In this document: positions 38,095 through 64,000 of the stretch, in pieces | How positions within the stretch are numbered: position 1 is the first letter of the stretch | How the letters are laid out: each line of letters begins with the position of its first letter | NCBI GenBank assembly: GCA_963575745.1 | Contig: CAUYUJ010000181.1 | Location: 1-64,000, forward strand | DNA length: 64,000 bases | Direction of reading: 5' to 3' | DNA from: Prorocentrum cordatum | Lineage: Eukaryota | Made by a program: the position numbers and the translations under genes | The notes under the pieces: model-generated | What the model saw: only the letters and a program-made list of their open reading frames with translations | Databases searched by the model: none | What the model was told of the DNA's origin: nothing

Positions 38095-38125
<31 letters not shown>

Positions 38126-38131
38126 GCTCGC

Positions 38132-38165
<34 letters not shown>

Positions 38166-38190
38166 GCTCGCGCTCGCGCTCGCGCTCGCG

Positions 38191-38234
<44 letters not shown>

Positions 38235-38242
38235 CTCTCCCG

Positions 38243-38324
<82 letters not shown>

Positions 38325-40657: not shown

Positions 40658-41034
40658 TGCCAAGTGCCATTTGGTACCTACCGTCACGGTCCTCAGAGGT
40701 CTTGCGACCAAGTTGCGGGTGGGAGGGTGGGATGTTTGCACGAGCAGTGGAGAGGACAGCTTCAAGACAGTCAAAGTGGATTGATGACATCAGTTGCACA
40801 ACATAAACTGCACCACACGCATTGCACAACGTCGATTGCACCACATAGATTGCGCACCACGTCCATTGCACCACGTCGAGTGGACCACATGCAATGCGCA
40901 ACATAGATTACTCAACATAGACTGCACCACATAAATTACAACACCTAAATTACACCACCGATAGTGGTCCACAAAGGTTGCACAACATAGATTGCAGAAA
41001 TAGGTTGCACAACCTAAGTTGCATCCTAATACAC

Positions 41035-45699: not shown

Positions 45700-48420
45700 A
45701 GGTGTACCCCCTACCCCACACGATAGCCAGACTGCATGCGTGGCAGAGGAGCAGAGGAGGGCCACGCTGCTTCGATGGGGGGCCACGTGCGAAGCCTACC
45801 CCCCACCCCCCACGATTTCTGAGGGGGGGGGGTCATTTCGCTCGGGAGCTCCTGAACGAAGAGAAAGAGAGAGAGAGAGAGACAGAGAGACGGAGGGACA
45901 GAGAAACAGGGGCAGAGGCACAGGCAGAGACAGAGACGGAGATAGAGACGGAGACAGAGACAGAGACGGCGACCGACGGGCAGCCCGGAGCGGTAGAGCA
46001 GCAGAGGAGGGCAGGAGTGCGGCAGGCGCCACGGCGAGAGCGCCCTTGCACAGGATATGGCCGAAGACGAGCGGCCGAGGACGATCCGGTGGAAGAGACG
46101 CGGAGGAGAGACCATTAGGGGGCCACATGCGAACCTTACCCCTACCCCCCACGACTTCTGAGGGGGAGGGCGGGGTTCATTTCGTTCGGGAGCTCCCGAG
46201 CGAAGTGATGCCTTCCAGTGCGGAGGCCACCTCTCCAGCACATTGTCCTTTCCTTACACAGGGATTTCAAACGCTGTCAGTCTGAAACTTGCTTGGTTCG
46301 ATCGGGCTGTCCTCGGCATGGTTAGGGGGCCACATGCGAACCCTACCCCTACCCCCCACGACTGTGAACCCCACCCTCCCCCTCAGAAGTCGTGGGGGGT
46401 AGGGGTAGGGTTCGCATGTGGCCCCCTAGTCGTCGGTGGACAAAACCTCCCTCTAGCAAACCTCCATTTAGTGAAAACGGCCTGGGACCGAAACCGACGG
46501 ACCTGGAACCGCAAAAATGTCGGCCGCGACGCCCTCTCGCGAACCGAAAAGGGCCAATTCCTTAATCGACGTGTCAGGGTAAGGGGTCTGTCCACCCCCG
46601 ACACATATCGGCGGCGAGCGAGGGGGGGAAATGAGAAGGAGAAGGCCTTCTCGGAAGGCGGCGGGACTTCTCAAGAGCCCTCGCGCCTTCTGAGAAGCTG
46701 TTGTTGGTCTTCGGGGGAGGCTTAGAAAGCTTCTCGGAAGGCCGGGGGGCTTCCGAGCCTTCTGAGAAGGCCTTCTCATTCTCACTTCCCCCCCTCGCTC
46801 GCCGCCGAACACAGCTTCCACCACGCGGCCCGCACCGCATTGATGGCACCACATGCCCTCCACCGCAGAGCTTCCACCACCCAGCGTCCATCACGTATAT
46901 GTTGCGCTACATAGGTTGCACCGCACTGCTCTCACAGCGTCGCTTGCACCACATGGCTTCCACCAGTACTGGCATATCCACGGTGCATGATTTCACTCTT
47001 GGGGGGTCCACGGTGGCAGACGTTGAAGTCCCCTGTACGGATGTACAGCACGCGGAAGTGGAGGCCCCCGCACTGGACAGTGCCAGGAGAGAAAGAGAGA
47101 GAGAGAGAGACAGAGAGACGGAGGGACAGAGAAATAGAGAAACAGAGACAGAGGCACAGGCAGAGACAGAGACGGAGACGGAGACGGAGACAGAGACAGA
47201 GACAGCGACAGACGGGCAGCCAGAGAAACGGAGAAGAGCGGCAGCCAGGTTGCATGCGTGGTAGAGGAGCAGAGGAGGGCAGGAGTGCGGCAGGCGCCAC
47301 GGCGAGAGCGCCCTTGCACAGGATATGGCCGAAGACGAGCGGCCGAGGACGATCCGATGGAAAAGACGTGGAGGAAGGACCATGCCGAAGACAGCCCGAT
47401 CGAACCAAGCCAGTTTCAGACCGACAGCGTTTGAGATCCCTGTGCAAGGAAAGGACAGTGTGCTGGAGAGGTGGCCTCCGCACTGGAAGGCATCGCGAGA
47501 GAGAGAGAGAAGAGCAGCACGAGAGATCGTTTTTGTTGGTTCGGCGGCAGCCCAAGTGGTCCTTTGGGGGGAGAGGAAGCTGCCGGCCGATGACCGAACC
47601 TTTTCCATCCCGGGCAGCCCTGCGCGTGCCCGCGCGCCCCGGCACTGCGTATCCCCCGTCGGACCTGCGCAGCCGACAAGGCCAGGTGATCCGGAACTCG
47701 GGTTACAGTCGGGGCCTTGACCTAAAGGAACCCAAAATAAGGAACGAGGCCCCTTTTTGTTCCATTAGTTAAACTTCGGTTTCCCATCGAAAACACGAGG
47801 AAAGCCTGAGGCAAGCTGCGAAACGCTTGAGGAACGCGGAGCCCCTCCCCAACGAAAAAGGTTCCTTCTTCAGGGCCCCGACTGTATCGGCGGGCCCTTT
47901 GAAAAATAGTCCCTACTCATATCGAGCAATTGTGGAGGGAGGAGCGGGAGTACGGCAGGCGCCGAAGCGAGGGCGCCCTTCCGGACGGCCGAGGACGAAC
48001 GGCCGAAGGTGACCCAACAACGGGAAAGACACCGAGGAGAGGCCATGCCAGAGACGGCCCGATCGAGCAAAACATGTTAGAACTAGCAGTGTTTGATCCT
48101 GTGTGGGAGAAGGCAGTGCGTAGGAGAGGCGGCCCCCGCACTGGGCAGACTCAGGGAAGAGGAGAGATTAGCACTCATGTTGAGTAATGGTAGAGGGAGG
48201 GACAAGAGCATGGCAAGCGCCGAGGAGAGTGCCCTTCCGGACGGCCGAACACGAACGGGCGAAGACGACTGAACCAGCAAAACACTGGAGAAAGACAATG
48301 CCAGAGATGGTCCGATCGAACTAAGCATATTCAAACAAACAACGACGTTTGAAATCCTGCGTGTGGAAAGACAATACGCTGGAGAGGCGGCCCCAGCACT
48401 GGTCAGCATCACGAAAAAGA
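45700..48420. repeat. Cluster of related dispersed-repeat fragments
   Basis: 45860-46110 resembles 47090-47375; the GGCCGAGGACGA module recurs at ~47950-48300; GGGGCCAC(A/G)TGCGAA recurs at ~45517, 45778, 46118, 46326. Confidence 0.7.
46323..46428. mobile_element. ~105-bp hairpin element with perfect ~40-bp inverted arms
   Basis: TAGGGGGCCACATGCGAACCCTACCCCTACCCCCCACGACT and its exact reverse complement. Confidence 0.85.
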
Positions 48421-51204
48421 GGGGAGCAGTACTCATATTGAGCAGTGGTGGAGGAAAGGGCGGAAGGGAGAGGAGGAGCTGTCCCCTTCCCCTCCCCAGT
48501 CCTCTCTCCTCACACTTGCTCCCCCCCCCTCCTCCCCCCTCCTCCCACATCCCCACTCCCAGCTCCCAGTTCCATCTCCTACTCCTCTCCCTATCCCCCT
48601 GCCTCCGTCCTTCGTGTCCTCCTGCATCCCTTGTCCCAAAAAATATGTGCTTCCTGTCGCACCACTGGACACGTCGTTAGGGCGGGCCGGGCGGTTCGCC
48701 TGAGACTTCCGCACTACTTACAATCTTGAGGCTTGACAATTCCAACACTTCCAGGGATAGAGGGCGGGTGGTTTCCGGAATTGGACTCTCGCATTGGCGC
48801 CGCGCATACAGATTCCAACAATTACAAGGATGGACAGCGAATGGTTTCCACCAGAGGACTGGCGCCGCACACATTCGTCTCGCTCACTTCCAACCACAAC
48901 ACGGCTGGAGGGCGGTTCCTTTCCATTCACCCATTCCCCTGCTCACACCCCAGCCTCACGAGGGGCTGGAGTGGAGGCATGGATAGACGCCCGGCCTCGA
49001 GACGCCGCGTTTTTGCTCATGCCCTCACCCGATCATCCGAACGAAGGACGAGAACCGTCTCAATGACGCAGCCAGCTGGCCTCCTGGAGGCCTCCGACAG
49101 AGCTCCAGAAGGCTCTGGAAACCCCCCAGAGAGCTCCAGAGTCTGGACGCCTCAGGGGGCCTCGGGGAACCTCGTGAGACCTTCAGCGAGTGTGGCTGGA
49201 AGCGTCCACAAACACGGAGAGCAAACAAGGTGAAGCCGCCCTTGTAGATTGGGTTGCGGTCCGCCCCGAGAAAAAAGAAAAGTAGGAGACTTCAATAATT
49301 GAAACAGGAAGGTGCTTCATGATAGATGCTGCTAATTGGAGTTCCAGAAATGCTGCCTGCGACGACCGACGGGTGTATGAAGTAAGTAGGGTTTTATTAA
49401 GGAAAAAAGAGCGTCCGCAATGTAGGATCCCACCAGGGTTTAGCGACGACAACGAGAGCGCTCTCAAAGCCTTCGAAGATTGAGAAAACTATTCCAGAGA
49501 TCTGGAGTAGCGGTGTAGTTCCAAACCCCCTAGCAAGCCACTCCCAGGCCATTCACCCACACAGACGCACACCGAAACGCGCCTCGATACTGGTCTATGC
49601 GTCCAGGCCTCCTCGTCCCAGCACGACGCCCGTGCTCCCTGGCTGCCGTTCCTCCCTCCATCTCTAGCCCGACCGGCAGGGCACCGCGCGAGAAGGCTCG
49701 CCAGACTCGCTGCGGACAAGAGGAGGCGAAGCACGCCCTCGAACCATCAATCCCCCAAAACCTTCCAGGCAGACCCGACAAGCGTTTCAAACAGCAGCAA
49801 GCCGTGACCGGAAAAAGGCTGCCGCCTGCCACAGAGGTACGGCCGCAGGCAGCAGCACCCCGACATTGGAAGCCCCGGTTCGCACCTTGAGCGCCTTCGC
49901 CCAAGCGGTCTCGGGGTCCTGGCGCGGTCAGCCACGCACACCACAGACAGTGCGTGGGAGGGCGCACAGAGGATTGGCAGTGCTCGAAGAAAACTTCGTG
50001 GACAATCATCCGCAGTATCATTTCTTGGGCTTGGGTTGGGCCACCACGGTAAGCTGCGAAGTTTTCACACTCACAATCATTCTTCAGTGTCCAAACGATG
50101 GTATGGCGCCTTGCTTCCCGAATGTCGAGACAGAGTGTAATCGGATATAAAGCAGAAGAGCATACCTCAACGACATAGGACCTTCCGCCGGCCAAAACAA
50201 ACAGAACATCCAAGGGTACCCTCCCCAGGATGCACAAGAACACCCAACAAACACGAAGAACACGAGGGCACCCTCCCCGAACCGACCTCGATCTTATACC
50301 TCGGTCCGACTGTAATCGCTTGCCATGCCCGCTCACAATATGAGCACACCGTTTGTGTGTGAGTGCGACGTGTTGCTGGAATGTATGCTGATGTTGATGA
50401 TGCTGCGTCCTTCTGCGTGCGAGCTACTGGACATGGCGTTTCGCTCTCCCTGTCGTAGAAAAAGCCGTCAGCAACAACAGGAAATAATTGCAACGATAGC
50501 TGGCGTGTCGCGTCCCGTTTGCGTTCATACGCAGCACGGTTGCTTGTAGATCTGTATATCCAATATACACATAGTTTGTTCCACATACAACACAGAAACA
50601 CAAGCACAAACCTTTTATACATATAACGCATATCTGCATACACATCTATATGTATAAGAACACCGAAAACCATTCAACTATGTGGAATCGGATAAAGGCC
50701 ACCTTGCAACAGAGTGGGTGCTTGCCCAGAGACTATGCTCAGCTGACATGTCATAACACAAACACACGGACACACACACACACACACTTTCGGTCGTTGC
50801 GGCGCGGCGACTCGCCAGCGCGTTGGGCGCCCCACGCGGGGTGCGCAGTTCGAAAGGTCCTTCAGAAACCCCTCGTTTTAATGGAAGCAACTCATTTTTG
50901 GCGCGGGCTGGCCAACGGATTGGGACGGGAAACCACTGGGAAAACAATTCCCTCCCGCGGCGGCCACTGCTGGGGTTCCTACGGAGTCCTGGGGGTCATG
51001 GGAGTCCTACAGATTCAGACGTTTGCCTAAGAATTCTGCAGCTCCCCTCAGGATTCCGAAGGAACCCTCCGACTTCGTGGAAGTCCTCAAGGTCGGACTG
51101 GAATCCTGGCAGGGAGTCCTAGAAACCCATCTACAAAAAGGACCCAAGGACACCCCCAGGATTCCTACAGGATCCTTGGAAGTCCTGAGATTCAGAAGAC
51201 GTCC

Positions 51205-51885
<681 letters not shown>

Positions 51886-51886
51886 G

Positions 51887-51986
51887 NNNNNNNNNNNNNN
51901 NNNNNNNNNNNNNNNNNNNNNNNNNNNNNNNNNNNNNNNNNNNNNNNNNNNNNNNNNNNNNNNNNNNNNNNNNNNNNNNNNNNNNN
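51887..51986. other. Scaffold gap (100 N)
   Basis: Directly visible. Confidence 1.
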
Positions 51987-54900
51987 GGTGGCTCCCCCTT
52001 GGGGCTCCCAAATGATGCTCCTGGCAGCGTTTTGTGATCATGAGGCTCTCAAGAGAGACATGTGGGGAGGCCAAACGGCAATTTTAGCTGAGACGTCCCA
52101 CCAAAATCGGCGCGAACGGGCTCGTGATATCAGCCAGGGTGGCTCCCCCTTGGGGCTCCCAAATGATGCCCCTGGCAGCGTTTTGCGACCATGAGGCTCT
52201 CAAGAGAGACATGTTTGGGAGGCCAAACGGCAATTTTAGCTGAGACGTCCCACCAAAATCGGCGCGAACGGGCTCGTGAGATCAGCCAGGGTGGCTCCCC
52301 CTTGGGGCTCCCAAATGATGCCCCTGGCAGCGTTTTGTGACCATGAGGCTCTCAAGAGAGACATGTTGGGGAGGCCAAACGGCAATTTTAGCTGAGACGT
52401 CCCACCAAAATCGGCGCGAACGGGCTCGTGAGATCAGCCAGGGTGGCTCCCCCTTGGGGCTCCCAAATGATGCCCCTGGCAGCGTTTTGCGACCATGAGG
52501 CTCTCAAGAGAGACATGTTGGGGAGGCCAAACGGCAATTCTAGCTGAGACGTCCCACCAAAATCGGCGCGAACGGGCTCGTGAGATCAGCCAGGGTGGCT
52601 CCCCCTTGGGGCTCCCAAATGATGCCCCTGGCAGCGTTTTGCGACCATGAGGCTCTCAAGAGATACATGTTGGGGGCGCCAAACGGCAATTCTAGCTGAG
52701 ACGTCCCACCAAAATCGGCGCGAACGGGCTCGTGAGATCAGCCAGGGTGGCTCCCCCTTGGGGCTCCCAAATGATGCCCCTGGCAGCGTTTTGTGACCAT
52801 GAGGCTCTCAAGAGAGACATGTTGGGGAGGCCAAACGGCAATTTAGCTGAGACGTCCCACCAAAATCGGCGCGAACGGGCTCGTGAGATCAGCCAGGGTG
52901 GCTCCCCCTTGGGGCTCCCAAATGATGCCCCTGGCAGCGTTTTGCGACCATGAGGCTCTCAAGAGAGACATGTTGGGGAGGCCAAACGGCAATTTTAGCT
53001 GAGACGTCCCACCAAAATCGGCGCGAACGGGCTCGTGATATCAGCCAGGGTGGCTCCCCCTTGGGGCTCCCAAATGATGCCCCTGGCAGCGTTTTGTGAT
53101 CATGAGAGAGTGTGAGTGTGAGTGAATGTGACTGTGAGTGAGTCTGAGTGAGAGCGAGTCTCATCTTATCTTATCGAGTCCTATCTTATCGAGTCCTTGT
53201 CATATATCTTATCTTACCTTATCATATCTTGTGCTATCTTATTTGAGGGAGTTTCTGTGGAACTCACGTCATCCTCACCCCCGGCGCGAAGAGCACGAGC
53301 CCAGAGCGGCCTCCGGCACCGTTTCCGGACGGATCCGCTGGATCCGCTGGATCCGCTGGATCCGGTGACGAATCCCAAACCGGCGCCCTCGCCTGAGACA
53401 TCCTCACAAAACGGGCCCCGGGGGGGATGCCCAGAGGAGCCCAGAGCGGCCTCCGGCACCGTTTCCGGACGGATCCGCTGGATCCGCTGGATCCGCTGGA
53501 TGACGAATCCCAAACCGGCGCCCTCGCCTGAGACATCCTCACAAAACGGGCCCCGGGGGGGATGCCCAGAGGAGCCCAGAGCGGCCTCCTGGCACCGTTT
53601 CCGGACGGATCCGCTGGATCCGCTGGATCCGCTGGATCCGGTGACGAATCCCAAACCGGCGCCCTCGCCTGAGACATCCTCACAAAACGGGCCCCGGGGG
53701 GGATGCCCAGAGGAGCCCAGAGCGGCCTCCGGCACCGTTTCCGGACGGATCCGCTGGATCCGCTGGATCCGCTGGATCCGGTGACGAATCCCAAACCGGC
53801 GCCCTCGCCTGAGACATCCTCACAAAACGGGCCCCGGGGGGGATGCCCAGAGGAGCCCAGAGCGGCCTCCGGCACCGTTTCCGGACGGATCCGCTGGATC
53901 CGCTGGATCCGGTGACGAATCCCAAACCGGCGCCCTCGCCTGAGACATCCTCACAAAACGGGCCCCGGGGGGGATGCCCAGAGAGCCCAGAGCGGCCTCC
54001 GGCACCGTTTCCGGACGGATCCGCTGGATCCGCTGGATCCGCTTGATCCGGTGACGAATCCCAAACCGGCGCCCTCGCCTGAGACATCCTCACAAAACGG
54101 GCCCCGGGGGGGATGCCCAGAGGAGCCCAGAGCGGCCTCCGGCACCGTTTCCGGACGGATCCGCTGGATCCGCTGGATCCGGTGACGAATCCCAAACCGG
54201 CGCCCTCGCCTGAGACATCCTCACAAAACGGGCCCCGGGGGGGATGCCCAGAGGAGCCCAGAGCGGCCTCCGGCACCGTTTCCGGACGGATCCGCTGGAT
54301 CCGCTGGATCCGCTGGATCCGTGACGAATCCCAAACCGGCGCCCTCGCCTGAGACATCCTCACAAAACGGGCCCCGGGGGGGATGCCCAGAGGAGCCCAG
54401 AGCGGCCTCCGGCACCGTTTCCGGACGGATCCGCTGGATCCGCTGGATCCGCTGTCCGCTGGATCTCCCAAACCGGCGCCCTCGCCTGAGACATCCTCAC
54501 AAAACGGGCCCCGGGGGGGATGCCCAGAGGAGCCCAGAGCGGCCTCCGGCACCGTTTCCGGACGGATCCGCTGGATCCGCTGGATCCGGTGACGAATCCC
54601 AAACCGGCGCCCTCGCCTGAGACATCCTCACAAAACGGGCCCCGGGGGGGATGCCCAGAGGAGCCCAGAGCGGCCTCCGGCACCGTTTCCGGACGGATCC
54701 GCTGGATCCGCTGGATCCGCTGGATCCGGTGACGAATCCCAAACCGGCGCCCTCGCCTGAGACATCCTCACAAAACGGGCCCCGGGGGGGATGCCCAGAG
54801 GAGCCCAGAGCGGCCTCCGGCACCGTTTCCGGACGGATCCGCTGGATCCGCTGGATCCGGTGACGAATCCCAAACCGGCGCCCTCGCCTGAGACATCCTC

Positions 54901-55710
54901 ACAAAACGGGCCCCGGGGGGGATGCCCAGAGGAGCCCAGAGCGGCCTCCGGCACCGTTTCCGGACGGATCCGCTGGATCCGCTGGATCCGGTGACGAATC
55001 CCAAACCGGCGCCCTCGCCTGAGACATCCTCACAAAACGGGCCCCGGGGGGGATGCCCAGAGGAGCCCAGAGCGGCCTCCGGCACCGTTTCCGGACGGAT
55101 CCGCTGGATCCGCTGGATCCGCTGGATGACCGGTGACGAATCCCAAACCGGCGCCCTCGCCTGAGACATCCTCACAAAACGGGCCCCGGGGGGGATGCCC
55201 AGAGGAGCCCAGAGCGGCCTCCGGCACCGTTTCCGGACGGACGACCTGACTGCATAACACGCCTGGATATGCCGACGGGGGCGAAGGAGGAGGAGGAGGA
55301 GGAGGAGGAGGAGGAGGAGGAGGAGGGGGAGGGGGCAGGCGAGGGAGCCCCGGCCCTGGGGGAGGGGCCCTGAGGGAGCCCTGATGGGCTTCCGGCACCA
55401 TGGAGAGGTCCTGTGGGGCGGCCGCCCCTTCTTCTCTCGGTCGTTTCCCTCTCGCCCAGAAGCGCGCGCCCCTTCTTCTATATATATATATATATACACA
55501 CAGAAACTCCCGATCAACCGCAGAGCGGCGGATGTTCTTATCTTGTAGTATCTTATCTTGTCTTGTCTTATCTGGTGATTATCATTGGGAGGAGGGAGGC
55601 GCGAGCGGGAGGAAGGAGGAGCATCGGGAGGCGTCAGAGTAATAACAAGAACCCCAATCCTTAGGATATGGGGAACAAGAACCCCAATCCTTAGAATATG
55701 GGGAAAAAAC
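51987..55710. mobile_element. Composite element, copy 3 (head lost in the gap): 152-bp array of at least 7 units (51987-53102), (TCTTA)n split by the TIR element, tail with duplicated hairpin
   Basis: Modules match 28250-29589 and 38610-39706. Confidence 0.85.
53243..55517. mobile_element. TIR-bounded insertion carrying a 131/140-bp tandem array (~14 units, 53297-55240)
   Basis: TTGAGGGAGTTTCTGTG (53243-53259) vs CACAGAAACTCCCGATCAA (55499-55517); the host TCTTAT tract is uninterrupted at ~29470-29500. Confidence 0.8.
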
Positions 55711-56289
55711 CCTGCCGCCGTAGCCGACGATTCGCACTAGCAGCGCATCGGCCCAAAAGTGGGACCATCCCTCCTCCTCCTCCTCCTCCTCCTTTCCCTC
55801 TCCCCCTCCTCCCCCTCCACCTCCCCCTCCCCCTCCTCCTCCTCCTCCTCCTCCTCCTCCTCCTCCTCCTCCTCCTCCTCCTCCTCCTCCTCTGCTCACT
55901 TCAAAAATCTGCCCTCGGCCACCCTCGGCCAGGGCAGCGCCCGGCAGAAGACTCGAGCGGCCGCCGGCGGAGCTGCGCCCCGCCGGACCAGCAGCCACCA
56001 TGGAGGACTCCGCTCCTCCTCCCGCGTGTAGCTCGCTTCGGTCCTCTGCGCTTTCTAGTCGGGCCTGAGGCGCCCCCCCCCCTCTCCATTGCCTCCCATG
56101 GAACCCATCGGCGCGGAAAAAGCCCCTCCTCCCGCGTGTAGCTCGCTTCGGTCCTCTGCGCTTTCCAGTCGGCCTGAGGCGCCCCCCCCCCTCTCCAGTG
56201 CCTCCCGTGGAACAACTCGGCGCGAGAGAAAAGCTCTTCCGTCCCTCGACACTCTCGGAGCTGGTCGCTCCACTTCTGCGCTGGTGTGG

Positions 56290-58620
56290 AGGGAGCTCTC
56301 CCAGAACCCTCCACGGCATGAGGGTCGCCCGTGAACGCTCCGCACTCCGGGCGGACAACGAGCGGTCGGTCCCGGGTAGGCAGCGCAGTGGGCGCCTGGC
56401 GGAACCTGTTGAGGTCAAGTGCGCGGTCTGCAAACTCTAAAGGCTCCGAGTTGGCCCCCTGCAGAAGATTCCAAGAAGCCGACGGGAAAGCATGGCTGCG
56501 GTCCGCGTTGGGCCAAGAAGCACTGAAACCAGCCATTCCGAATCCGTGCAGCATCATCTGGTCAACCACCGTGGCCCACTCCCCCCTCCTCCCACGCGAG
56601 ATGCCCCAATCGCAGGGCCCCGATGGTGGAGCTTGATGCCCAACGAGGAGGAGGAGGAGGAGGAGGAGGAAGAGGAGGAGGAGGAGGAGGAGGAGGAGGA
56701 GGAGGAGGTGGTGGGGCTTCGGGGCCCCAGCGAGCCCAACCACCCCCCACGGGCCCAGGAGGTGAATGACACGTTTACCTCTGGGGCCCTGGGGCCGCCG
56801 ACTCCGGCGGAGCACGCCCGTAAGTTTGACTTCCCAGGCCCTCGAGAAGCGCCTGGCAGGCCGACTGGTTCACCGGCGTGTGAAGAGTCGCTTCGGAACG
56901 AAAAGGGGGGGACTTCAGCGCCGACGCCGCGCCTCGTCTTGCCGAGTCCAGAAGCTCGGCTCAGTCCTCCCGCCCCAGGTCTCCGCGGTGACGACCCGCG
57001 GGGGGGCAGGCGCGACGCTCGGGCGAGCGCCGAAGGTATTTCCGAATAGAGCGCACGTCAGTCAAAGCCTCCACATTGAAAATGTGAACGTTTCCCTCCA
57101 CCCGCGTCTCCTGGTTGAACCCGCTCTCATTGGCTTCCTCCGCCTCCATCCCTCTGCGAGGTCCAGTTTGCCGCCAGGCTGAGAGCCATTCTTCAGCAGA
57201 CAGAGCAGCCCCCTGAAGATGGCGTAATTTGCGACCTCGCGGAGCCTTGCCGCGACAGGCAAGGATCCTGATCAAGGGGTAAGCCCCCTTCAACTTTCGA
57301 GCTCTCCAGGCCTTCCCCGGCTCATTCGCGATCTCCTGCCTCCATTGACGAAATTCACCCCTCCGGAGCGCGAACCACCTCTTGCTCAAAATCTTCAAAC
57401 GCACCTTGGCCGCCTCCTCCTCCTCCTCCCCCGTCACGGTCTTAGAGGCAGCCTGTTTCAGCTCCGGGCGGCGTTGTAGAAGTGCGCGGTGCTCGGCTGC
57501 ATGTGTTATGTGCCACTCGGGGCACTGCGCCACTGAACCTCCAGAGCATCCTGCATCCTGCCCGAGCGAGATCTCATCGACGACGGGGAAAAAAGAGTCG
57601 GGCTTCCTCTCCCTCGCTGCAGCCTCTCGGACTTCCGAGCCTGCAGCCCGCGCCTCAGAGACCCGTTCCAAGAAATAACGACGTTCTTAGTGTTGTCTCA
57701 TAGTTCCAGTGGGCCCTGCTAGGCGAACGGGCCTCTGGAGAAACAACCTCCCACCGAAAATTGCACTGAAGGGGCATGTGATCTCTAGGGTGCCTGGAGG
57801 GGATCTCCTGGTGATTCTTCATGATGCCCATAAGGGGCCCACCCGATGATGTAACCAAATATGTTGCTACTGTCGCACCTATAGTGTAGTCAACTCTTCC
57901 ATGGGTACCACCATTGTGCCCATACCAGGTAGGTTTTACATTGTTTCGTGGCCGAAGAGCAACCACACCGAACTCATCCACTGGCACGCGTAATTGTTCT
58001 CCAACGCCCCCAGCTAGATGTTCACGGCTGGCTAGCCCAGAGGAGCTCACATCTGTGTTCGTGTATACCCATGTGCCCTGTACGCTGGTGTCCCCGATTC
58101 CGTCGTTCAAGTCAACGCTGACTATCTGACAAAAACGCAAGAGATGTGGCCCGCTTCGGTCTGAACAAATCTCGGCGACGCAATCGAAAGAGACGCGGTA
58201 ACAAACTACTCGGGGTTCCTTGGAGCCTGGGACGCCGCGGAAAGAAATAACAACCTAGAACAGCAACGTCCATGCCCGATCGCTTCACCCGAACTCCGAG
58301 CCCCTGCCCCTGTAGGGCAGCGGGACAAAGCACAATTCGTACAATGTGACTCTCTCGAAGCCTGCAGGACGGCGAAACGGAAATACTGTTGGTCGATTCG
58401 TATGCGCACCTCGTCCGTACCCCGCCTCGAACAAGGAAACGCCACCGATCTTCTTACGAGTCAGAGCTGCATCGGGAAGAACACGGACTTGGGTCCCCAC
58501 GAAAAACGCCGCGTGGAAAGACTTTGCAATGACAGAGAGTACTTCTTCTTGCCGTTCGCTGGAAATGAGGCTCAGAGGATCCCAGCTCAATAATCTGAAC
58601 GTAGCAATGAAGATGGCCAC
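56290..58620 (-). mobile_element. Decayed LINE ORF2 (APE endonuclease, linker, N-terminal half of RT)
   Basis: LLSWDPLSL..R..E, VGTQ, GLGVRVK..D..V..CYF.P, VDLND, PTWYG..GRVDY, DHMP; then KRVIHLLGP, G.SRGRR.E, DRSHAFPS, GAFTGDP; frameshifted. Confidence 0.75.
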
Positions 58621-59154
58621 ACGTAGTGATCCAACACTTGGCCGAAAGAAAAACGCTTGGGTAAGCGAAGCGTGTGTCTGCATTGCGAGTGTGGCAGGGC
58701 GGGGGCCTGAAAGAGGGAACTCGATCCGCCTGACGAGGAAGAGGATGAGGATGAGGAGGAGGAAGAGGAAGAGGAAGAGGAGGATGAAGAGGAGGAGTTC
58801 CTCCTCCTCCTTTTTACTATTCGTCCTCTCGGTTTCCTGCTTCCCTCCCTCTTCATGGGGAAGGGCATGCAGGTTTTCTTTCGCTGCAGAAGGAAGGGAA
58901 GGGAAGGAGGGGGACCGAGCGGGAGGTGCACGCAGAGCGAGCGAAGGATGAGTATCGGAGGAAGGCCCATTGAGACAAGGGCATCTGCCCCCTTCTAGCC
59001 CAAAGCCGGTCAACATCTGTCTCCGGACACCTCCCGGGGTCCTCGACCTCTCGGTCGACGCGGATCCAGCCGCGGCGACCAAGGAACCCTCAGGAAGCCC
59101 AGAGACGACGACCAAACACCCGGGAGTGTCGCTGCTGCCCAGGACGCCCGAGAT

Positions 59155-59333
59155 TCAGCGAGCGAAGAACGGTATAAAATAAACTTTTTCGCCGTCGGGG
59201 GCGCCTGCCCCAGGGCGGCTGGAAAGTTTATACCCTTACGGTGGCACCGTAGGGGTATAAACTTTCCAGCCGCCCTGGGGCAGGCGCCCCCGACGGCGAA
59301 AAAGGTTGTTTTATACCGTTCTTCGCTCGCTGA
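59155..59333. mobile_element. 179-bp near-perfect palindromic MITE with a 5-bp TSD
   Basis: Arms TCAGCGAGCGAAGAACGGTATAAAA...TACGGTG and the reverse complement; GAGAT at 59150-59154 and 59334-59338. Confidence 0.9.
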
Positions 59334-59524
59334 GAGATGGGTACGGAACAAATGTCTAAGATGCCCATCGCCACAGGTTGTCCGAAACCGACAGCGGCAG
59401 CTGTTGGGCAGGCGGCTTTGTGTCTCGACTGGACCACGCCATCGGCGACACCGACACCGAGCTCCGTGAATCAGGAACAGGCACTGCTGCCGGTCTTCCT
59501 ACCTACTCTTTGCGTGCCTATTTC

Positions 59525-59722
59525 TAGGGGAACGAAGAATGACATAAACATAAAAACTCGAAGGTCCTCGCTGATTTCTCGGATCGGCGCTGGACCCCCC
59601 TCCCTGGCGCTCGGAGCGCGCCAGGGAGGCGCTGGAGGCGCCGCCAGGGGGGTCCAGCGCGGATCCGAGAAATCCGCGCGGACCTTCGAGTTTTTATGTT
59701 CATGCCATGGCTCGTTTCCCTA
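59525..59722. mobile_element. Family P palindromic MITE with a 5-bp TSD
   Basis: TAGGGGAACGA...TCGTTTCCCTA; ATTTC at 59520-59524 and 59723-59727. Confidence 0.85.
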
Positions 59723-60235
59723 ATTTCGATCGTGCCGATCCCACGTAGGCTACACGCAAGAGCGACCCTGGGTAAGATTGACCTCTGGTGCGCGGCTTCT
59801 TGGGGGCCTTGGGGGGAGGCCGCTGCTGGCGCTTCGCGTTCAGCCATCTGGGGACCCATCTGTGCCCGCACCAGAGGTCACTCCGCCGAAGGAGTAGAAG
59901 ACAAACATTAAGAAGCCTGCATACAACGGAAAACATGCTACAATTATTCTATAGAGCTCTATAGAAAAAAAGCGGCAGAAACGTAAACTGCTGTCGCTCC
60001 GCGCGGAGTTCTTGGATCTGCGCTGGACCCCCCTCCCCGGCGCGCGGGCTGCGCCAAGGGCGGCGCCGGAGGCGCCGCCGGGGGGGCCCAGGCGCGGATC
60101 CAGGAAGTCCGCGAGGAACGAACGCCACACTTTTATGTTTATGCTGCTTTTTCTCCTTTGACAAAGGTCACCCTGGCGAAGGGTCACTCTGACGTCTAGT
60201 CGACCCTGGAAGTTAGGAATGCCAGCCACCACCGG

Positions 60236-60443
60236 TACTCCTCATCTCGGATCGGCGATCGACACAAATCGGATCGCCAGAAATCGGCAGCCGAGTCGGG
60301 AAGAGTCGAATCGGCGAAAATTGGCAGGCTAGTATGCCTCCAATGAGACATCGGACTTCGAATCGGAATCCCACATCGAATCGGAATCGGAATCGGCAGC
60401 CCTCGAAGTCGAATCGAATCGGACTGGAAGAATCGAAACGAGT
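60236..60443. repeat. GAATCG-rich insert bounded by a degenerate 31-bp direct repeat
   Basis: 60205-60235 resembles 60444-60474. Confidence 0.7.
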
Positions 60444-60468
60444 CCTGGAGACGAGGAGTGCCGGCCAC

Positions 60469-60586
60469 CGCCGGGAGGACGAAGAAGCAGAAGGGCTCGA
60501 GCAGGGGCTGCACGAGCTTCTCCAGAAAGAACCCCTGGCTGCTCGCGGCCGAATCCTTCGCGCGGTCCATCAGCGGCATGACGGGC
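60469..60586 (-). CDS. PDE exon (PVMPLMDR...SQGFF...EPFCFFVLPA)
   Basis: Contains the invariant Gln and Phe clamp of class I PDEs; GT donor at 60468; 5' boundary non-canonical. Confidence 0.9.
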
Positions 60587-61784
60587 CCGGGGTCGATGGG
60601 CCACCCCAGGGGCCAGCAGAGCAGAATAACCAGGTGGCCATCAACAGTCAGCGTGCTATCATGTGGAACGCAGAAGCAACGAAGGGGCTTTCCTGGCCAC
60701 TGCGAGCCTCGGCTACGAATAGGCTCCCCGACCGAAACCCAAGGAACGGCCAGAAAACCAGAGCCACTCCTGAGCCCAAAGCGGTCCTTATTTTCAAAGT
60801 GTTGACTACACTCTGTGCGCGTCTGCCTGGGCTGACCTGAAAAATGAACCTGGCGCGACTTCAATTCGGGACACAGTTCCTCAGTGGCACTGGTCGGCGT
60901 TGCTTGGCGTTTCTTGGCATTGCTTGGCGTTGAAAGGAAGCGAAGAACAAGCAAGCAGCCCAGGAATGGCGTTAATTGGGAACAGAACCAAACAATCCAG
61001 GGAATGCAACACGAAAAACAAAAAGGCAGAGCCACCCGGGGACGGCAGTCATAGAAGAAGAACAAAAAAAACATGCTCCGCGCGAATTTCTTGGATCTGC
61101 GGCTGGACCCCCTCCATGCCGCGCTGAGCGCGCCAGGGGCGGCGCCGGAGGCGCCGCCGGGGGAGCCCAGCGCGGATCCAAGAAATCCGCGAAGAGCGCC
61201 AAGAGTTCATGTTTATGGCGTGTCTTCTTCTTCTTCTTCTTCTTCTTCTTCTTCTTCGAAGCAAGGACACGAGACCAGACAGCGCCGTGCAAGGCCGCGT
61301 GAGGACACTGTAGACCAGGCAACCCCGGGGAGCGCTCCTGGAGGAGGAGGAGGAGGAGGAGGAGGAGGAGGAGGAGGAGGAGGAGGAGGAGGAGGAGGAG
61401 GAGGAGGGGGAGGAGGGGGAGGAGGAGGAGGAGGAGGAGGAGGAGGGGGGGGAAGAGAAGGAGGAGGAGGCCGCGCAGCCCTCGGGCACGCGCCGGCCGG
61501 CCAGGTCCGGCGCCCACCAGGCTCTCAAGACAGGCAGGGGTCCCTCGGGGCAAGGCCTCTCGCTGGGAGAAGAACTCGTTCCTGCAAGTCCGGCTTAAGT
61601 CGGCTCGTCTGCGCAACAGTATCTGTGCAATGGCTGGCGCGCTCCCAGCCTCGTTTTTGACCACGTCTTTTGACATTCGTTTCGCACGATTTCTTGCCGA
61701 CGCGCTGGCTAGCGGCTCGGCGCGGCTTCTTGGGCTTCTGGCGTGCGTGCGTCTGGCCCCCAGGGGTGAGCCGAGCGACCTGGG
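60587..61784. mobile_element. TIR element (~30-bp degenerate TIRs, 8-bp degenerate TSD) occupying a PDE intron position; carries a nested MITE and a (GAG)n tract
   Basis: TIRs 60587-60616 and 61753-61784; TSD TGACGGGC (60579-60586) / TCATGGGC (61785-61792). Confidence 0.75.
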
Positions 61785-61792
61785 TCATGGGC

Positions 61793-61850
61793 AGCCCAAG
61801 CTCCCGCTCCCGGTCCCCCTGCCTAAAGAACTCCTCCTCCAGCGCCGCCA
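61793..61850 (-). CDS. PDE exon (VAALEEEFFRQGDRERELGL)
   Basis: Canonical EEFF.QGD.E...G motif. Confidence 0.92.
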
Positions 61851-62030
61851 CCATGTGAACGACGAAACAAAAAGGGGTCTTACGCGAGATGGCATAGCTA
61901 TCCTGCGCGGTGGCCTACGCGGGCCGCCAGCGCGGCACGCTGCATTGCAGACGAAGGTGCTCACGCGCGACCTGACGCGGGCAGCTTACGCGCCAGCGTC
62001 GGCGCAGACGACCCTGCTTTCTCCCGTCGC
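61851..62030 (-). other. 180-bp insertion/intron with a 7-bp direct repeat and weak TIRs; in-frame stop; no AG at the junction
   Basis: CCATGTG at 61851-61857 and 62031-62037. Confidence 0.8.
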
Positions 62031-62783
62031 CCATGTGCCTGTGCACCCTCCATGGCCTGCAGGTGTGCCCGAGGTCGAACACGTGGACGCAGCACTGCAG
62101 GAGCATGCGCCTGTCGACCCTGCTCGCCTCCCGCATCTTCATGTCGGTCTCGAACTCTGTGGCCAGCGGCTGGTCGGAGCTCCGCAGCACCCGGGCGGAG
62201 AGCTTCTCCACCAGCTCGAAGTGGTGAGACATGTCCGTCGCCAAGATCGCCTCGATTATCTTCGAGCGGAGCGTAGTTGCCGCATCCGACTCTATACTTT
62301 CCAGCACGTTCATGCCCGGCAGCCTGAACGTCTGGAAGACCCTGTGGGCGTGCATGTTCTCCAGAGGCGATATGTCGTTGTATGTCATCGCGAGTGAGTG
62401 GGAGGTCTTCACCAGGAAGGCATTGTTCGTGCCCATGTGCCCAACGTCGTGGCCCACGCAAGCGATGAGGAGAGCCAATATGTCGTGATAGCTGAAATAC
62501 CTGCAGAACTGCCCTTCCGTCAAGGCCACATATGCAAACTGGACTGTGTCGACGGCGTGCCTCCAATCGTGGTATGGGTTGGCATTGTACTGCCTTGCAG
62601 ACGCGCCCATCCAACAGCGTAGCACACTCTCCTCGATGTTGTAGCGCTCCAGCAGCCCGAAGGGTGACTTGAAGGCGACCGACAGCAGGGCGACGTCCAG
62701 ATCGATGTCGCCCCTGGAACGCTTATCGAAATCAATCGACCTGAGGGTGGCCAAGTCGGAGTCTTCACTGGGTGCACCTCCGC
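62031..62783 (-). CDS. PDE main catalytic exon (PDEase_I, HD domain)
   Basis: NPYHDWRHAVD, HDVGHMGTNNAFL, YNDISPLENMH, ILATDMSHH, HVFDLGHTCRPW. Confidence 0.97.
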
Positions 62784-63075
62784 CTCTAGAAGGAGAGAAA
62801 ACGTAAACATAAACTATTGGCGCTCCGGCCGTTCCGCAAGGATTTCTTAGATCCGCGCTGGACTCCCCTCCCTGGCGCGCGCAGCGCCTGAGGGGCGGCG
62901 CCAGAGGCGCCGCCGGGAGTGGCCCATGCGCAGATCCAAGAAATCCGCGCGGAGCGGCGAAAGTTTATGTTTATGGCGTTTCTTCTTCTTCTTCTTCTTC
63001 TTTTCTTCTCCTTCTTCTTCTTCTTATGATTATTATTGTTATTGTTGTTATTATTATTGTTATTGTTGTTGTTAA

Positions 63076-63116
<41 letters not shown>

Positions 63117-63333
63117 GTAGTAGTATTAGTATTATTATTGTTGTTATTCTTAGTATTATTATTATGGTTATTGTTGTTATTATTAATACGATTATTGCTA
63201 TTGTTGTTATTGTTAGTGTTATTCTTATTACTATTAATATTAATATTATTATTAAACTTAGTATTATTACTATTATTGTTATTACATTATTTCTTCTTCT
63301 TCTTCTTCAAGTCTTCACAGGGCGCACCTCCAC
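62784..63333 (-). other. GT-AG intron: family P MITE + (TTC)n/(ATT)n, flanked by a 27-bp direct repeat
   Basis: 62760-62786 vs 63310-63336, 3 mismatches; frame is preserved on splicing. Confidence 0.8.
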
Positions 63334-63434
63334 CTCGGTATCGCGGTGGGGAGCACGAGGCTTGGCTGGTGCCTCTGCTCCGGATGCCGCCCTGCAGGCC
63401 AGAGTCGTCGAGGGCCTCCAGCGGCAGCCTCCGC
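63334..63434 (-). CDS. PDE exon, low-complexity linker (RRLPLEALDDSGLQGG...)
   Basis: AG|G acceptor and AG|GT donor; phases match both neighbours. Confidence 0.75.
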
Positions 63435-63691
63435 CTCGAGTGAGGTCGGGCATGTCCCCCCACAGGCGGATTTTCGGAAGAACAATACGTAAAACTAGTT
63501 GTTTAAAAAGGCCTCAAAATGGCCTCAAAACTAGGAGTCGGTAAAAAAAAGGCCTCAAAAGGCCTCAAAACTAGGATTTTCTGTTAAAAAAGGCCTCAAA
63601 ATGGCCAAAAATAGCCCAAGAATCGTCCCCAGACTATTTTTTCTATCATTTCTGGATATTCGCCCTGTAGAGAGACATGCCCGACTGAAGC
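63435..63691 (-). mobile_element. GC-AG intron that is itself a MITE (introner-like)
   Basis: TIRs 63445-63466 / 63664-63685; direct repeat GCCTCGAG at 63433-63440 and 63690-63697. Confidence 0.85.
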
Positions 63692-63849
63692 CTCGAGGTG
63701 GGCTCCGGCGACGAGACCCGAACAAACGACGAGGTGGCCCAGCTGTCCATCGACTCGTTGTCCCCCCGGTGTCGTGCGGCGCCGCACTTCCGGCAGAAGC
63801 GCGCGTCGGGCATGAAGACGTTGCCGCACTGGGCGCAGGCGGGGTCCTC
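63692..63849 (-). CDS. PDE exon with a zinc-ribbon motif (CAQCGNVFMPDARFCRKCG)
   Basis: CxxC-x10-CxxC; AG|G acceptor and AG|GC donor. Confidence 0.85.
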
Positions 63850-63948
63850 CTCGAAGGAGGAAGAGGAGGAGGTGGAGGAGGGAGGGGGGAGGAGGAGGAG
63901 GAGGAGGAGGAGGAGGAGGAGGAGGAGGAGGAGGAAGAAGTGATTCTC
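63850..63948 (-). other. 99-bp GA-AG intron made mostly of (CCT)n
   Basis: 13-bp direct repeat CTCCTCGAAGGAG at 63847-63859 and 63946-63958. Confidence 0.7.
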
Positions 63949-64000
63949 CTCGAAGGAGATCCCGAACCCAGGCAACACCGAGGCGAAGTCGCGGTCGCAG
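63949..64000 (-). CDS. PDE upstream exon, truncated by the window edge (CDRDFASVLPGFGISFE)
   Basis: In frame with the next exon across the GA-AG intron. Confidence 0.65.

What the first reader, a model, noticed from the sequence alone, without database searches (positions are those of the whole stretch)
60579..62037. Two consecutive transposon-derived introns in an intact PDE catalytic domain lack an AG acceptor; both can be read GC...GG
Seen: removing 61851-62030 gives RPWRVHRHMVAALEEEFF, and removing 60587-61792 gives ELGLPVMPLMDR. Both match class I PDE spacing exactly. No register within either direct repeat yields a 3' AG. GC...GG is available for both, and the short one also allows AT...AC but lacks the U12 ATATCC motif. 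Both inserts have terminal inverted repeats that would pair the ends. Their TIRs/TSDs are decayed, and one carries nested insertions, yet the exons keep all metal-binding residues and the invariant Gln with no stops. Inference: these are long-tolerated inserts removed by non-canonical, possibly structure-guided splicing, in a gene whose other introns end in AG. Known precedent: repeat-bounded non-canonical introns in Amoebophrya and euglenids.
Basis: partly seen in the sequence, partly recalled or inferred. Interest (0 to 1): 0.85.

Follow-up and report, generated by a model that had tools for sequence, protein, structure and literature searches.

The report
AG-less transposon introns in dinoflagellate gene
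Two transposon-like inserts inside a phosphodiesterase gene of the red-tide alga Prorocentrum cordatum are cleanly missing from its RNA although neither ends in the usual AG signal, and the public gene model is cut short because of this.

Summary
The window is Prorocentrum cordatum. Its minus strand carries a class I PDE gene.

**What the RNA shows.** In 4 of 4 laid runs from 4 studies (one on record as polyA RNA), a single contig joins 62031 to 61850, skipping 180 nt. The same contig joins 61787 to 60580, skipping 1206 nt. An independent JGI protein, P0122, spans the same junctions.

A 7-nt boundary repeat allows 8 registers and none ends in AG.

**Insert 2** has the right length, but its register is 6 nt off. 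The RNA keeps the upstream repeat copy (Ile, not Val). The intron therefore reads GA..GT or TG..CG, not GC..GG.

**Other features.**
- Both inserts have paired ends well beyond shuffled controls.
- The other four introns in the window are G[T/C/A]..AG.
- The deposited model P0002 reads into insert 1 and stops there.

**Reading.** These are AG-independent, transposon-derived introns like the Amoebophrya introner elements, here in a core dinoflagellate (about 0.68).

**Main rival.** The RNA could come from an unassembled copy that lacks the inserts (about 0.2). No DNA run was available to test this.

The parts
63949..64000 (-). upstream coding exon (runs off the window end)
   Evidence: tblastn of P0002/P0003; sequence
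63850..63948 (-). intron Ia, 99 nt, GA..AG, (CTC)n inside, 13/13 boundary direct repeat
   Evidence: no terminal pairing (z -0.1)
63692..63849 (-). coding exon (zinc-ribbon part)
63435..63691 (-). intron Ib, 257 nt, GC..AG; MITE-like: 8/8 repeat CTCGAGGC supplies AG|GC, 12-nt perfect inverted repeat
   Evidence: (duplex z -6.6, 0/200)
63334..63434 (-). coding exon
62784..63333 (-). intron Ic, about 550 nt, GT..AG (donor one of two GTs), 24/27 boundary direct repeat; holds (TTA)n, (AAG)n and a palindromic MITE copy
   Evidence: (contig piece ends at 62786)
62031..62783 (-). PDE catalytic exon (PDEase_I profile 1-171)
   Evidence: 0 other letters in 62031-62786 in 4 of 4 runs
62031..62037 (-). 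upstream copy of the 7-nt direct repeat CACATGG of insert 1
61851..62030 (-). insert/intron 1, 180 nt, skipped in RNA; no register ends in AG; in-frame stop inside
   Evidence: fold MFE -85.6 vs -74.3±4.1
61851..61857 (-). downstream copy of CACATGG, left single-stranded 3' of the terminal helix
61787..61850 (-). 64-nt exon 2 (…VAALEEEFFRQGDRERELGLPI)
   Evidence: (0 other letters)
61787..61792 (-). upstream repeat copy GCCCAT of insert 2, kept in RNA
60581..61786 (-). insert/intron 2, 1206 nt, skipped in RNA; GA..GT (or TG..CG, shifted by 1)
60581..60586 (-). downstream repeat copy GCCCGT (1 of 6 differs), removed with the intron
61075..61258 (-). nested (AAG)n + palindromic MITE-like element inside insert 2; copies at 62833-63014, 19976-20157, 22863-22979, 59996-60120, 59565-59712
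61340..61470 (-). (GGA/CTC)n microsatellite inside insert 2
60469..60580 (-). exon 3 (…MPLMDRAKDSAASSQGFFLEKLVQPLLEPFCFFVLPA; holds the conserved Gln)
24092..60468 (-). intron I3, 36,377 nt, GT..AG, 11/12 boundary repeat; holds tandem arrays, an N gap and MITE copies
23864..24091 (-). last coding exon with stop (VADTLLSNL…DAWRTPR*)

Best explanation
**What they are (inferred from anatomy).** Two MITE-like DNA transposons sit in the catalytic-domain coding sequence of a Prorocentrum cordatum class I phosphodiesterase gene. Each has imperfect terminal inverted repeats and a short target-site duplication.

**What happens to them (shown).** Each is removed from the transcript exactly as 'element plus one duplication copy'. 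This restores the pre-insertion reading frame. Neither has an AG at its 3' end in any register that the RNA allows.

**How this most likely works (inferred).**
- The 5' ends can be read with the usual dinoflagellate donors: GC for insert 1 and GA for insert 2.
- The 3' cut is not chosen by an AG. It falls at the place equivalent to the 5' cut in the second repeat copy.
- In the RNA, the terminal helix places that second copy next to the 5' site.
- A third element in the same gene (Ib) has the same build, but its duplication happens to contain AG|GC. It is therefore an ordinary GC..AG intron.

**Consequence.** Gene-prediction pipelines that allow only G[T/C/A]..AG cannot model such introns. The deposited protein consequently runs into insert 1 and ends at a stop codon there.
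For: **Removal from RNA**
- in 4 of 4 laid runs (studies P1, P2, P3, P6; X15 on record as polyA RNA) one contig of 1292-2376 nt covers 62786-62031, 61850-61787 and 60580-60458 contiguously. It shows 0, 0 and 1 other letters in the three pieces.
- That single letter is explained by the 11/12 repeat at the next intron.
- 16 runs of 6 studies hold 0.36-0.39 of the sampled words. The exon share is 943 of 2601, or 0.36.
- P0122, a JGI contig product not among the laid runs, reads ...RHMVAALEEEFF...ELGLPIMPLMDR...FFVLPAVADTLL..., which spans all three junctions.
- the 92%-identical P0127 has the same spacing.

**The spliced product is a normal PDE**
- gapless alignment across both junctions with 6 homologues and with PDB 6ezu_A.
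- Ile at the junction matches 5 of 6 homologues.
- PDEase_I reaches profile position 234/238 in P0122. In the annotated P0002 it stops at 173/238.

**No AG, transposon-like build**
- no AG in 8 of 8 registers for insert 1 and in 2 of 2 for insert 2. None would appear either in all 7 registers of a perfect 6-nt repeat.
- terminal pairing beyond shuffles for I1, I2 and Ib, but not for Ia, Ic or I3.
- boundary repeats of 7/7 and 5/6.

**No intact second copy found**
- no other NCBI P. cordatum protein matched exon 1 or exon 3, so no intact paralogue is annotated.

**Why this would have gone unseen**
- (PMC10666404, passages): the annotation allowed only GT/GC/GA donors with AG acceptors.
Against: - No genomic DNA reads of the organism could be laid. 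No listed run held half or more of the words, and the tool gave no table of the joined form in other runs (table 5b). A DNA copy without the inserts is therefore not excluded.
- 'Element plus one repeat copy' is exactly how an empty site differs from a filled one, so precise removal also fits that rival.
- Only contigs were available, not raw reads. Splicing efficiency, lariats and minor isoforms cannot be seen.
- Three of the four laid runs have no recorded library kind.
- Contig pieces inside insert 1 exist at low depth in X1 (61860-62002, depth 3.8 against 19) and X5 (61975-62019, depth 2.2). Whether they come from this locus or from other copies is open.
- The role of the helix in choosing the 3' site is pure inference.
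- No other copy of either outer element lies in the 64 kb, so family membership rests on anatomy alone.
- P0122 also lacks 57 nt inside exon 1 at non-GT boundaries. Such contigs can therefore carry odd deletions.
Confidence: 0.68

Rival explanations
1. Empty-site copy. The RNA comes from another copy of the gene that never received the two inserts. This could be a recent duplicate, an allele in a non-clonal culture, or a retroposed copy. The window's copy would then be a transposon-broken gene that is silent or degraded.
For: - The skipped stretches equal 'element plus one target-site duplication', which is exactly the difference between empty and filled sites.
- P. cordatum has many duplicated genes (PMC10666404, passages).
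- Insert 1 has a perfect 7/7 repeat and could be young.
- Contig pieces resembling insert 1 but not fully matching it (tables 3 and 8) suggest other, similar copies of the element are around.
- No DNA run was available.
Against: - The window's exons are identical to the RNA over 756+64+112 nt, and the shared introns Ic and I3 fit too.
- Insert 2 looks old, yet the exons around it show no difference from the RNA. Its repeat is 5/6, its inverted repeats are imperfect, and its nested MITE is only 84% like the neighbouring copy.
- An old filled copy should have drifted from an empty one.
- No second P. cordatum protein with these exons was found in three database searches. This is weak evidence, because the assembly is incomplete.
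- All 4 laid runs, from 4 studies under three organism labels, show the same joined form.
Confidence: 0.2
2. Reverse-transcriptase template switching. The real mRNA keeps both inserts. During cDNA synthesis the enzyme jumps between the direct repeats across the hairpin, giving a false precise deletion.
For: Direct repeats flanking a strongly paired insert are the classic setting for this artefact (recalled from the literature, not read here). Both inserts have this build.
Against: - The joined form is the only form assembled across the junctions in 4 of 4 runs from 4 studies, and in a JGI contig.
- An unspliced mRNA would end the protein at the stop inside insert 1.
- The downstream exons are nevertheless intact, in frame and 73% identical to P0003 over exon 3. 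That is no less than the 63% of the exon upstream of the inserts.
Confidence: 0.05
3. Insert 2 is cut at 60587-61792 (GC..GG). The A seen in RNA at the junction would then come from G-to-A editing of 60582, or from a strain or assembly difference at that base.
For: - It would give both inserts the same GC..GG ends.
- mRNA editing is reported in this species (PMC10666404, passages).
Against: - It needs a complete change in all 4 runs and in P0122.
- Keeping the upstream repeat copy explains the same letters with no extra event.
- Even under this reading the intron still lacks AG.
Confidence: 0.05

Closest known systems
Non-canonical introns / introner elements of Amoebophrya A25 and A120 (Farhat et al. 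2021, PMC7789003; passages read)
   Same: - Dinoflagellate lineage.
- RNA-validated introns with many different end dinucleotides.
- Short direct repeats overlapping the boundaries.
- Inverted repeats that pair the two ends.
- No transposase inside, so MITE-like.
   Different: - Those are in parasitic Syndiniales, where more than 60% of introns are non-canonical and U1 snRNA was not found.
- Here it is a free-living core dinoflagellate whose published intron catalogue is all G[T/C/A]..AG.
- The direct repeats here are 6-7 nt, against 3-5 nt there.
- There is no perfect 8-20-nt inverted repeat within 30 nt of the ends of I1 or I2.
- Only two cases have been seen.
Introner-like elements of Polarella glacialis and Symbiodinium (Roy et al., bioRxiv 10.1101/2020.10.14.339549; passages read)
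   Same: - DNA-transposon insertions with 3-8-nt target-site duplications create introns in core dinoflagellates.
- Splice sites are taken from the duplication and the element ends.
- GA and GC donors are common in young introns.
- Intron Ib here fits this description fully.
   Different: - All classes described there use G[T/C/A] donors with an AG acceptor. The read passages show TSD motifs such as AGGH, NAGGH and GHNN.
- I1 and I2 have no AG available.
- Multi-copy families could not be tested here.
Identically repeated intron boundaries (IRIB) of dinoflagellates (Mendez et al. 2015, PMC5032977; abstract, section 11 and passages read)
   Same: - A 2-9(11)-nt repeat at both intron ends is kept once in the mRNA. 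All six introns in this window show it.
[quoted passage not shown] Insert 1 (…CATG|G) fits the GG-without-A case.
   Different: - The paper reports AGG always present at the 5' site. Insert 1 has TGG there.
- Insert 2 has no GG at either junction.
- No transposon anatomy was described there.
Nonconventional introns of euglenids (as summarised in PMC11282704; passages read)
   Same: - Non-canonical ends.
- TSD-like repeats at the junctions.
- Terminal pairing that brings the ends together.
- Suspected MITE origin.
- Lengths from tens to thousands of nt.
   Different: - An unrelated lineage.
- The CAG/CTG motif at +4..+6 / -8..-6 is absent here (I1 has ACG, I2 has CCA at +4..+6).
- Excision as circles was not tested.
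U12-type AT..AC introns
   Same: One of the 8 registers of insert 1 reads AT..AC.
   Different: - The 5' end in that register is ATGGGCGA, not the U12 donor consensus (motif recalled).
- The minor spliceosome is reported absent from alveolates (PMC7789003 passage).
- Insert 2 has no AT..AC register allowed by the RNA.

Membership tests
Class I 3',5'-cyclic nucleotide phosphodiesterase (PF00233) | Full-length match to the PDEase_I profile above the gathering score | tested here: met
   - Exon 1 scores 175.6 bits over profile 1-171.
- The spliced product P0122 scores 207.9 bits and reaches profile position 234/238.
Class I 3',5'-cyclic nucleotide phosphodiesterase (PF00233) | Catalytic His/Asp motifs and the conserved Gln aligned to a solved PDE | tested here: met
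   Alignment to 6ezu_A: HDvgH, LEnmH, atDmshH, fDLgh and sSQgfF all align with no gap across either junction.
Amoebophrya-type introner element (Farhat et al. 2021) | Intron validated by RNA, with ends other than GT..AG | tested here: met
   contigs of 4 runs; registers. The validation is by contigs, not by counted junction reads.
Amoebophrya-type introner element (Farhat et al. 2021) | Direct repeat overlapping the exon/intron boundaries (3-5 nt in the original description) | tested here: met
   7/7 for I1 and 5/6 for I2. These are longer than the 3-5 nt described.
Amoebophrya-type introner element (Farhat et al. 2021) | Inverted repeat of 8-20 nt between the two intron ends (within 30 nt, as applied in PMC10666404) | tested here: not met
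   - The longest perfect inverted repeat within 30 nt is 5 nt for I1, 6 nt for I2 (8 nt within 40) and 12 nt for Ib.
- Imperfect pairing is nevertheless significant.
Amoebophrya-type introner element (Farhat et al. 2021) | Member of a repeated family of introns in the genome | not testable with these tools
   - No genome is held, and there is no second copy in the window.
- The only hint is contig pieces similar to insert 1 in X1 and X5.
Dinoflagellate Introner-like elements (Roy et al.) | Target-site duplication of fixed length flanking the element | tested here: met
   Ib 8/8, I1 7/7, I2 5/6.
Dinoflagellate Introner-like elements (Roy et al.) | Splice sites G[T/C/A]..AG recruited from the TSD and/or element ends | tested here: not met
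   Met for Ib (GC..AG). Not met for I1 or I2, which have no AG in any register.
U12-type (minor spliceosome) intron | Conserved 5' donor motif after AT/GT and a matching branch-site motif | tested here: not met
   The AT..AC register of I1 begins ATGGGCGA. The consensus is recalled, not taken from a tool.
Euglenid nonconventional intron | Pairing of +4..+6 with -8..-6 (usually CAG/CTG) and excision as a circle | tested here: inconclusive
   The ends pair but the motif is absent. Circles are not testable here.

The most novel reading that the evidence does not exclude
Prorocentrum cordatum, and perhaps core dinoflagellates in general, may have an AG-independent way of erasing MITE insertions from mRNA. 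It would cut at equivalent points of the two target-site-duplication copies, which the element's terminal helix holds together.

If so:
- The Amoebophrya phenomenon is ancestral or widespread in dinoflagellates rather than a parasite oddity.
- A hidden intron class has been filtered out of every G[T/C/A]..AG-only annotation, leaving many truncated gene models.
- Coding exons of these giant genomes would be far more tolerant of transposon insertion than those of other eukaryotes.
Probability: 0.35. Interest if true: 0.82.

Novelty: new member of a known kind. Interest (0 to 1): 0.62.

Why it matters
- Published dinoflagellate intron catalogues outside Amoebophrya list only GT/GC/GA donors with AG acceptors. 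This holds for the papers read here: PMC10666404, PMC11453091, PMC5177918 and the Roy et al. preprint.
- My searches found no report of AG-less, repeat-bounded introns in Prorocentrum or other core dinoflagellates.
- If these two introns are typical of a class, three things follow:
  - Splice-site rules hard-coded into dinoflagellate annotation pipelines systematically truncate proteins, as they did here.
  - The tolerance of these genomes to transposon insertion in exons gets a mechanistic handle.
  - The question of how a 3' splice site can be chosen without AG becomes testable in a culturable, free-living species with existing RNA-seq and proteome data.

Tried and rejected
- **Wrong frames.** I translated the wrong frame. 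This was replaced by the three-frame script.
- **Repeat finder.** The inverted-repeat list was swamped by (GGA)n/(CTC)n pairs. Only the nested palindrome was useful. Terminal pairing was tested by duplex folding with shuffles instead.
- **No genome.** No whole genome is held, so no genome-wide census of AG-less introns and no copy count of the elements could be made.
- **Other genes in the window.** 26 of the 288 stop-to-stop frames of 110 aa or more were scanned against Pfam. I picked most of the longest ones, all 241 aa or more. None matched above threshold, so no second gene was available for comparison.
- **Metagenome loci.** The scan with P0122 returned 14 loci, the best 46% identical. 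There were no close nucleotide relatives, so dN/dS could not be computed. The per-exon protein identities were used instead.
- **Rfam.** Only sub-threshold miRNA-like hits caused by microsatellites.
- **Earlier scan notes.** Nothing held.
- **U12 reading of insert 1.** Rejected, because the donor motif is absent.
- **Internal canonical sites.** No contig uses them.
- **Uncovered parts.** In all four runs the interior of insert 2, apart from the MITE, carries no contig depth. In X15 insert 1 carries none either. The argument rests on the joints.
- **Depth arithmetic.** In X5 and X8 the bins around insert 1 hold more summed depth than the exon contig and the single shown intron piece explain (table 2). 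The contigs responsible are not among the rows shown, so this stays open.
- **Supplements.** Two supplementary files of PMC10666404 were searched for three terms. Its tables S1 and S2 on introner elements were not seen.
Full report
**Organism and gene.** The window is GC-rich and full of repeats. The 251-residue translation of 62784-62032 (minus strand) is 100% identical to P0002. NCBI names P0002 'unnamed protein product [Prorocentrum cordatum]'. This stretch is a class I phosphodiesterase catalytic domain (PDEase_I, E 1.7e-51, profile positions 1-171 of 238). The translation of 60585-60400 continues the profile at 193-229.

tblastn of P0002 and of homologues P0003 and P0004 places further exons at 64000-63949, 63849-63692 and 63434-63334. 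The last coding exon lies 36 kb downstream at 24091-23864. No whole genome is held for this window.

**The observation.** On the minus strand, exon 1 ends ...CACATGG at 62031. The next 180 nt (62030-61851) end in the same 7 letters. All 8 registers that this repeat allows were listed by script: GC..GG, GG..TG, GG..AT, TG..CA, AT..AC, CA..CA, AC..TC and CA..TT. None ends in AG. Read through, the insert brings a stop codon after 39 codons.

**RNA evidence.** The run search listed 16 runs of 6 studies holding 0.36-0.39 of the sampled words of 60300-62900. No run held half or more. The exon share of that stretch is 943 of 2601, or 0.36.

I laid four runs from four studies on 56800-62975: X1, X5, X8 and X15. 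Only X15 is on record as RNA (polyA). In each of the four, one contig of 1292-2376 nt covers three pieces back to back in the record:
- 62786-62031
- 61850-61787
- 60580-60458

The pieces show 0, 0 and 1 other letters (tables 5 and 8).

The joints skip 61851-62030 (180 nt, 7 letters ambiguous) and 60581-61786 (1206 nt, 1 letter ambiguous). All runs are contigs, so depth, strand and rare forms cannot be judged.

The three runs without a recorded kind behave as RNA. Their contigs also lack the flanking introns Ic and I3.

The contigs instead keep the window's letters through 61787 (…GCCCAT) and resume at 60580 (CATGCC…). This gives ...LPIMPLMDR. With the window's letters as they stand, the intron is GA..GT or, shifted by one, TG..CG.

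The boundary repeat is GCCCAT (kept) and GCCCGT (removed), 5 of 6. Because the two copies differ at one place, the RNA itself shows that the cut lies after that place. GC..GG would be possible only if the A in the RNA came from a change of 60582 (editing, strain difference or assembly error). Even then none of the 7 registers ends in AG.

The single mismatch in the piece 60458-60580 has a simple cause. The next intron (60468-24092, GT..AG) is flanked by an 11/12 repeat, so the aligner ran 11 letters into it.

**Independent support.**
- A database search with exon 3 found P0122 (356 aa, JGI, contig of 1196 nt). It reads ...RPWRVHRHMVAALEEEFFRQGDRERELGLPIMPLMDRAKDS...FFVLPAVADTLLSNL...DAWRTPR. 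This spans both AG-less junctions and the 36-kb intron exactly as deduced.
- P0127 (92% identical over its overlap with exon 1) has the same spacing.
- In alignment A1 the spliced product runs without gaps across both junctions against 6 homologues. Five of the six have Ile at the junction.
- The alignment to the solved PDE 6ezu_A is also gapless there. It shows the His/Asp motifs and the conserved Gln.
- PDEase_I reaches profile position 234/238 in P0122.
- Exon 3 is 73% identical to P0003, against 63% for exon 1. The exons downstream of the inserts are therefore no less conserved than those upstream.

**The public gene model.** P0002 continues from ...RVHRHM into insert 1 (...GDGRKQGRL...PRWRPA) and ends at the stop inside it. 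Its PDE domain stops at profile position 173/238.

The genome paper states that the mapping and prediction tools were modified for GC and GA donors. It also says introner elements were searched only inside annotated introns, as 8-20-nt inverted repeats plus 3-5-nt direct repeats within 30 nt of the ends (PMC10666404, passages). An AG-less intron could not be modelled by that pipeline.

**Anatomy of the inserts.**
- *Insert 1.* It folds at -85.6 kcal/mol against -74.3±4.1 for 200 dinucleotide shuffles. Its first 9 nt pair with nt -16 to -8. This leaves the downstream repeat copy single-stranded.
- *Terminal duplex energies,* from the first and last 60 nt:

| Intron | Observed (kcal/mol) | Shuffles | z | Shuffles reaching it |
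|---|---|---|---|---|
| I1 | -51.0 | -36.3±4.5 | -3.3 | 1 of 200 |
| I2 | -64.6 | -43.9±5.1 | -4.05 | 0 of 200 |
| Ib | -49.1 | -22.6±4.0 | -6.6 | 0 of 200 |

- *Controls.* Ia, Ic and I3 show nothing (z -0.1, +1.5, +0.8).
- *Intron Ib* is the instructive comparison. It has the same build: an 8/8 repeat CTCGAGGC and a 12-nt perfect inverted repeat. Its repeat contains AG|GC, so it is an ordinary GC..AG intron.
- *Insert 2* is composite. It holds a (CTC)n array, an (AAG)n run and a palindromic MITE-like element (61075-61258). That element has five other copies in the window, the best 84% identical.
- *Copies elsewhere.* Neither insert 1 nor the outer parts of insert 2 have a second copy in the 64 kb.

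**Mechanism.** Shown: the RNA lacks 'element plus one repeat copy' at both sites, and no AG is available.

Inferred:
- Both 5' ends can be read with normal dinoflagellate donors (GC, GA), so 5' recognition may be ordinary.
- The 3' cut ignores the nearest downstream AGs, which lie inside exons 2 and 3 (contexts). It falls at the position equivalent to the 5' cut in the second repeat copy.
- That copy sits just 3' of the terminal helix. The helix is therefore the obvious candidate for placing it.
- Whether the spliceosome or another activity does this cannot be told here.

**Rivals.**
- *Insert-free gene copy as the source of the RNA (about 0.2).* Precise 'element plus duplication' removal is exactly what an empty site looks like, and no DNA run could be examined. 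Three things count against it:
  - The window's exons are letter-for-letter the RNA's, although insert 2 looks old (5/6 repeat, imperfect arms, diverged nested element).
  - No second P. cordatum protein with these exons turned up in three searches.
  - All four studies show the same form.
- *Reverse-transcriptase jumping (about 0.05).* It fits the geometry, but it would have to be complete in every library. It would also leave conserved, intact downstream exons unexplained.

**Literature.** For each paper, what I read is given in brackets.
- Amoebophrya A25/A120 have more than 60% non-canonical introns. A subset carries 8-20-nt inverted and 3-5-nt direct repeats (PMC7789003; abstract and passages).
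- Polarella and Symbiodinium introner-like elements have 3-8-nt duplications. In the passages read they always use G[T/C/A]..AG (bioRxiv 10.1101/2020.10.14.339549).
- Mendez et al. describe 2-9-nt identical boundary repeats. [quoted passage not shown] Insert 1 fits that wording; insert 2 does not.
- A 2024 review lists 'other boundaries' only for Amoebophrya (PMC11453091, passages).
- A review of transposon-derived introns groups Fritillaria, Amoebophrya and euglenids as the non-canonical cases (PMC11282704, passages).
- Seven full-text searches found no report of AG-less introns in Prorocentrum or other core dinoflagellates. The library lacks most subscription papers, including the printed version of Roy et al.

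The phenomenon is of the Amoebophrya kind, seen here in a free-living core dinoflagellate where the annotation rules hide it. It rests on two introns in one gene, and the DNA-level control is missing.

Noticed in passing
window 61918-62030 (minus strand), protein P0002: The deposited P. cordatum gene model reads through insert 1 and ends at the stop inside it. It thereby loses the last quarter of the PDE domain and the exons at 61850-61787, 60580-60469 and 24091-23864.
   Followed up: yes
window 62784-63333, 63850-63948, 24092-60468: The canonical introns of the same gene are flanked by unusually long direct repeats: 24 of 27 nt (Ic), 13 of 13 (Ia) and 11 of 12 (I3). These are longer than the 3-8-nt target-site duplications described for dinoflagellate introners. 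Their ends do not pair. The origin is unexplained.
   Followed up: partly
window 62491-62547 (minus strand), protein P0122: The JGI protein P0122 lacks 19 residues (TVQFAYVALTEGQFCRYFS), which is 57 nt inside exon 1. The ends read AC..GC or, shifted by one, CA..AG. None of the four laid contigs shows this gap. It could be an alternative non-canonical excision, a strain deletion or an assembly artefact.
   Followed up: partly
window 62833-63014, 61075-61258, 59996-60120, 59565-59712, 19976-20157, 22863-22979: A palindromic MITE-like element of about 180 nt is often preceded by (AAG)n. It has six copies in the window, 69-89% alike. It draws very high summed contig depth in all four runs (up to 2412 in X5), so it is abundant in transcripts genome-wide.
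   Followed up: partly
window 57212-57623: Contig depth appears in all four runs inside the 36-kb intron. The same 207-letter loose end at 57423 is seen in all four. This suggests an exon of another transcript nested in the intron. No Pfam match was found for the long frame there.
   Followed up: no
window 52000-53106 and 53297-55241; N run 51887-51986: Two large tandem arrays lie inside the 36-kb intron, next to a 100-N assembly gap. One has a 152-nt unit repeated 7.3 times at 97% match. The other has a 131/271-nt unit over about 1.9 kb, with an embedded GGATCCGCT 9-mer.
   Followed up: no
window 61860-62002 and 61975-62019: Short low-depth contigs in X1 (152 nt, G>A at 61907, ends unaligned) and X5 (151 nt, only 45 nt aligned) resemble the interior of insert 1. 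They do not match it end to end. This is a hint that the element has other transcribed copies elsewhere in the genome.
   Followed up: partly
window 63024-63284: An AT-only (TTA)n tract of about 260 nt (87 units, 73% match) lies inside intron Ic of a gene whose coding exons are very GC-rich.
   Followed up: no
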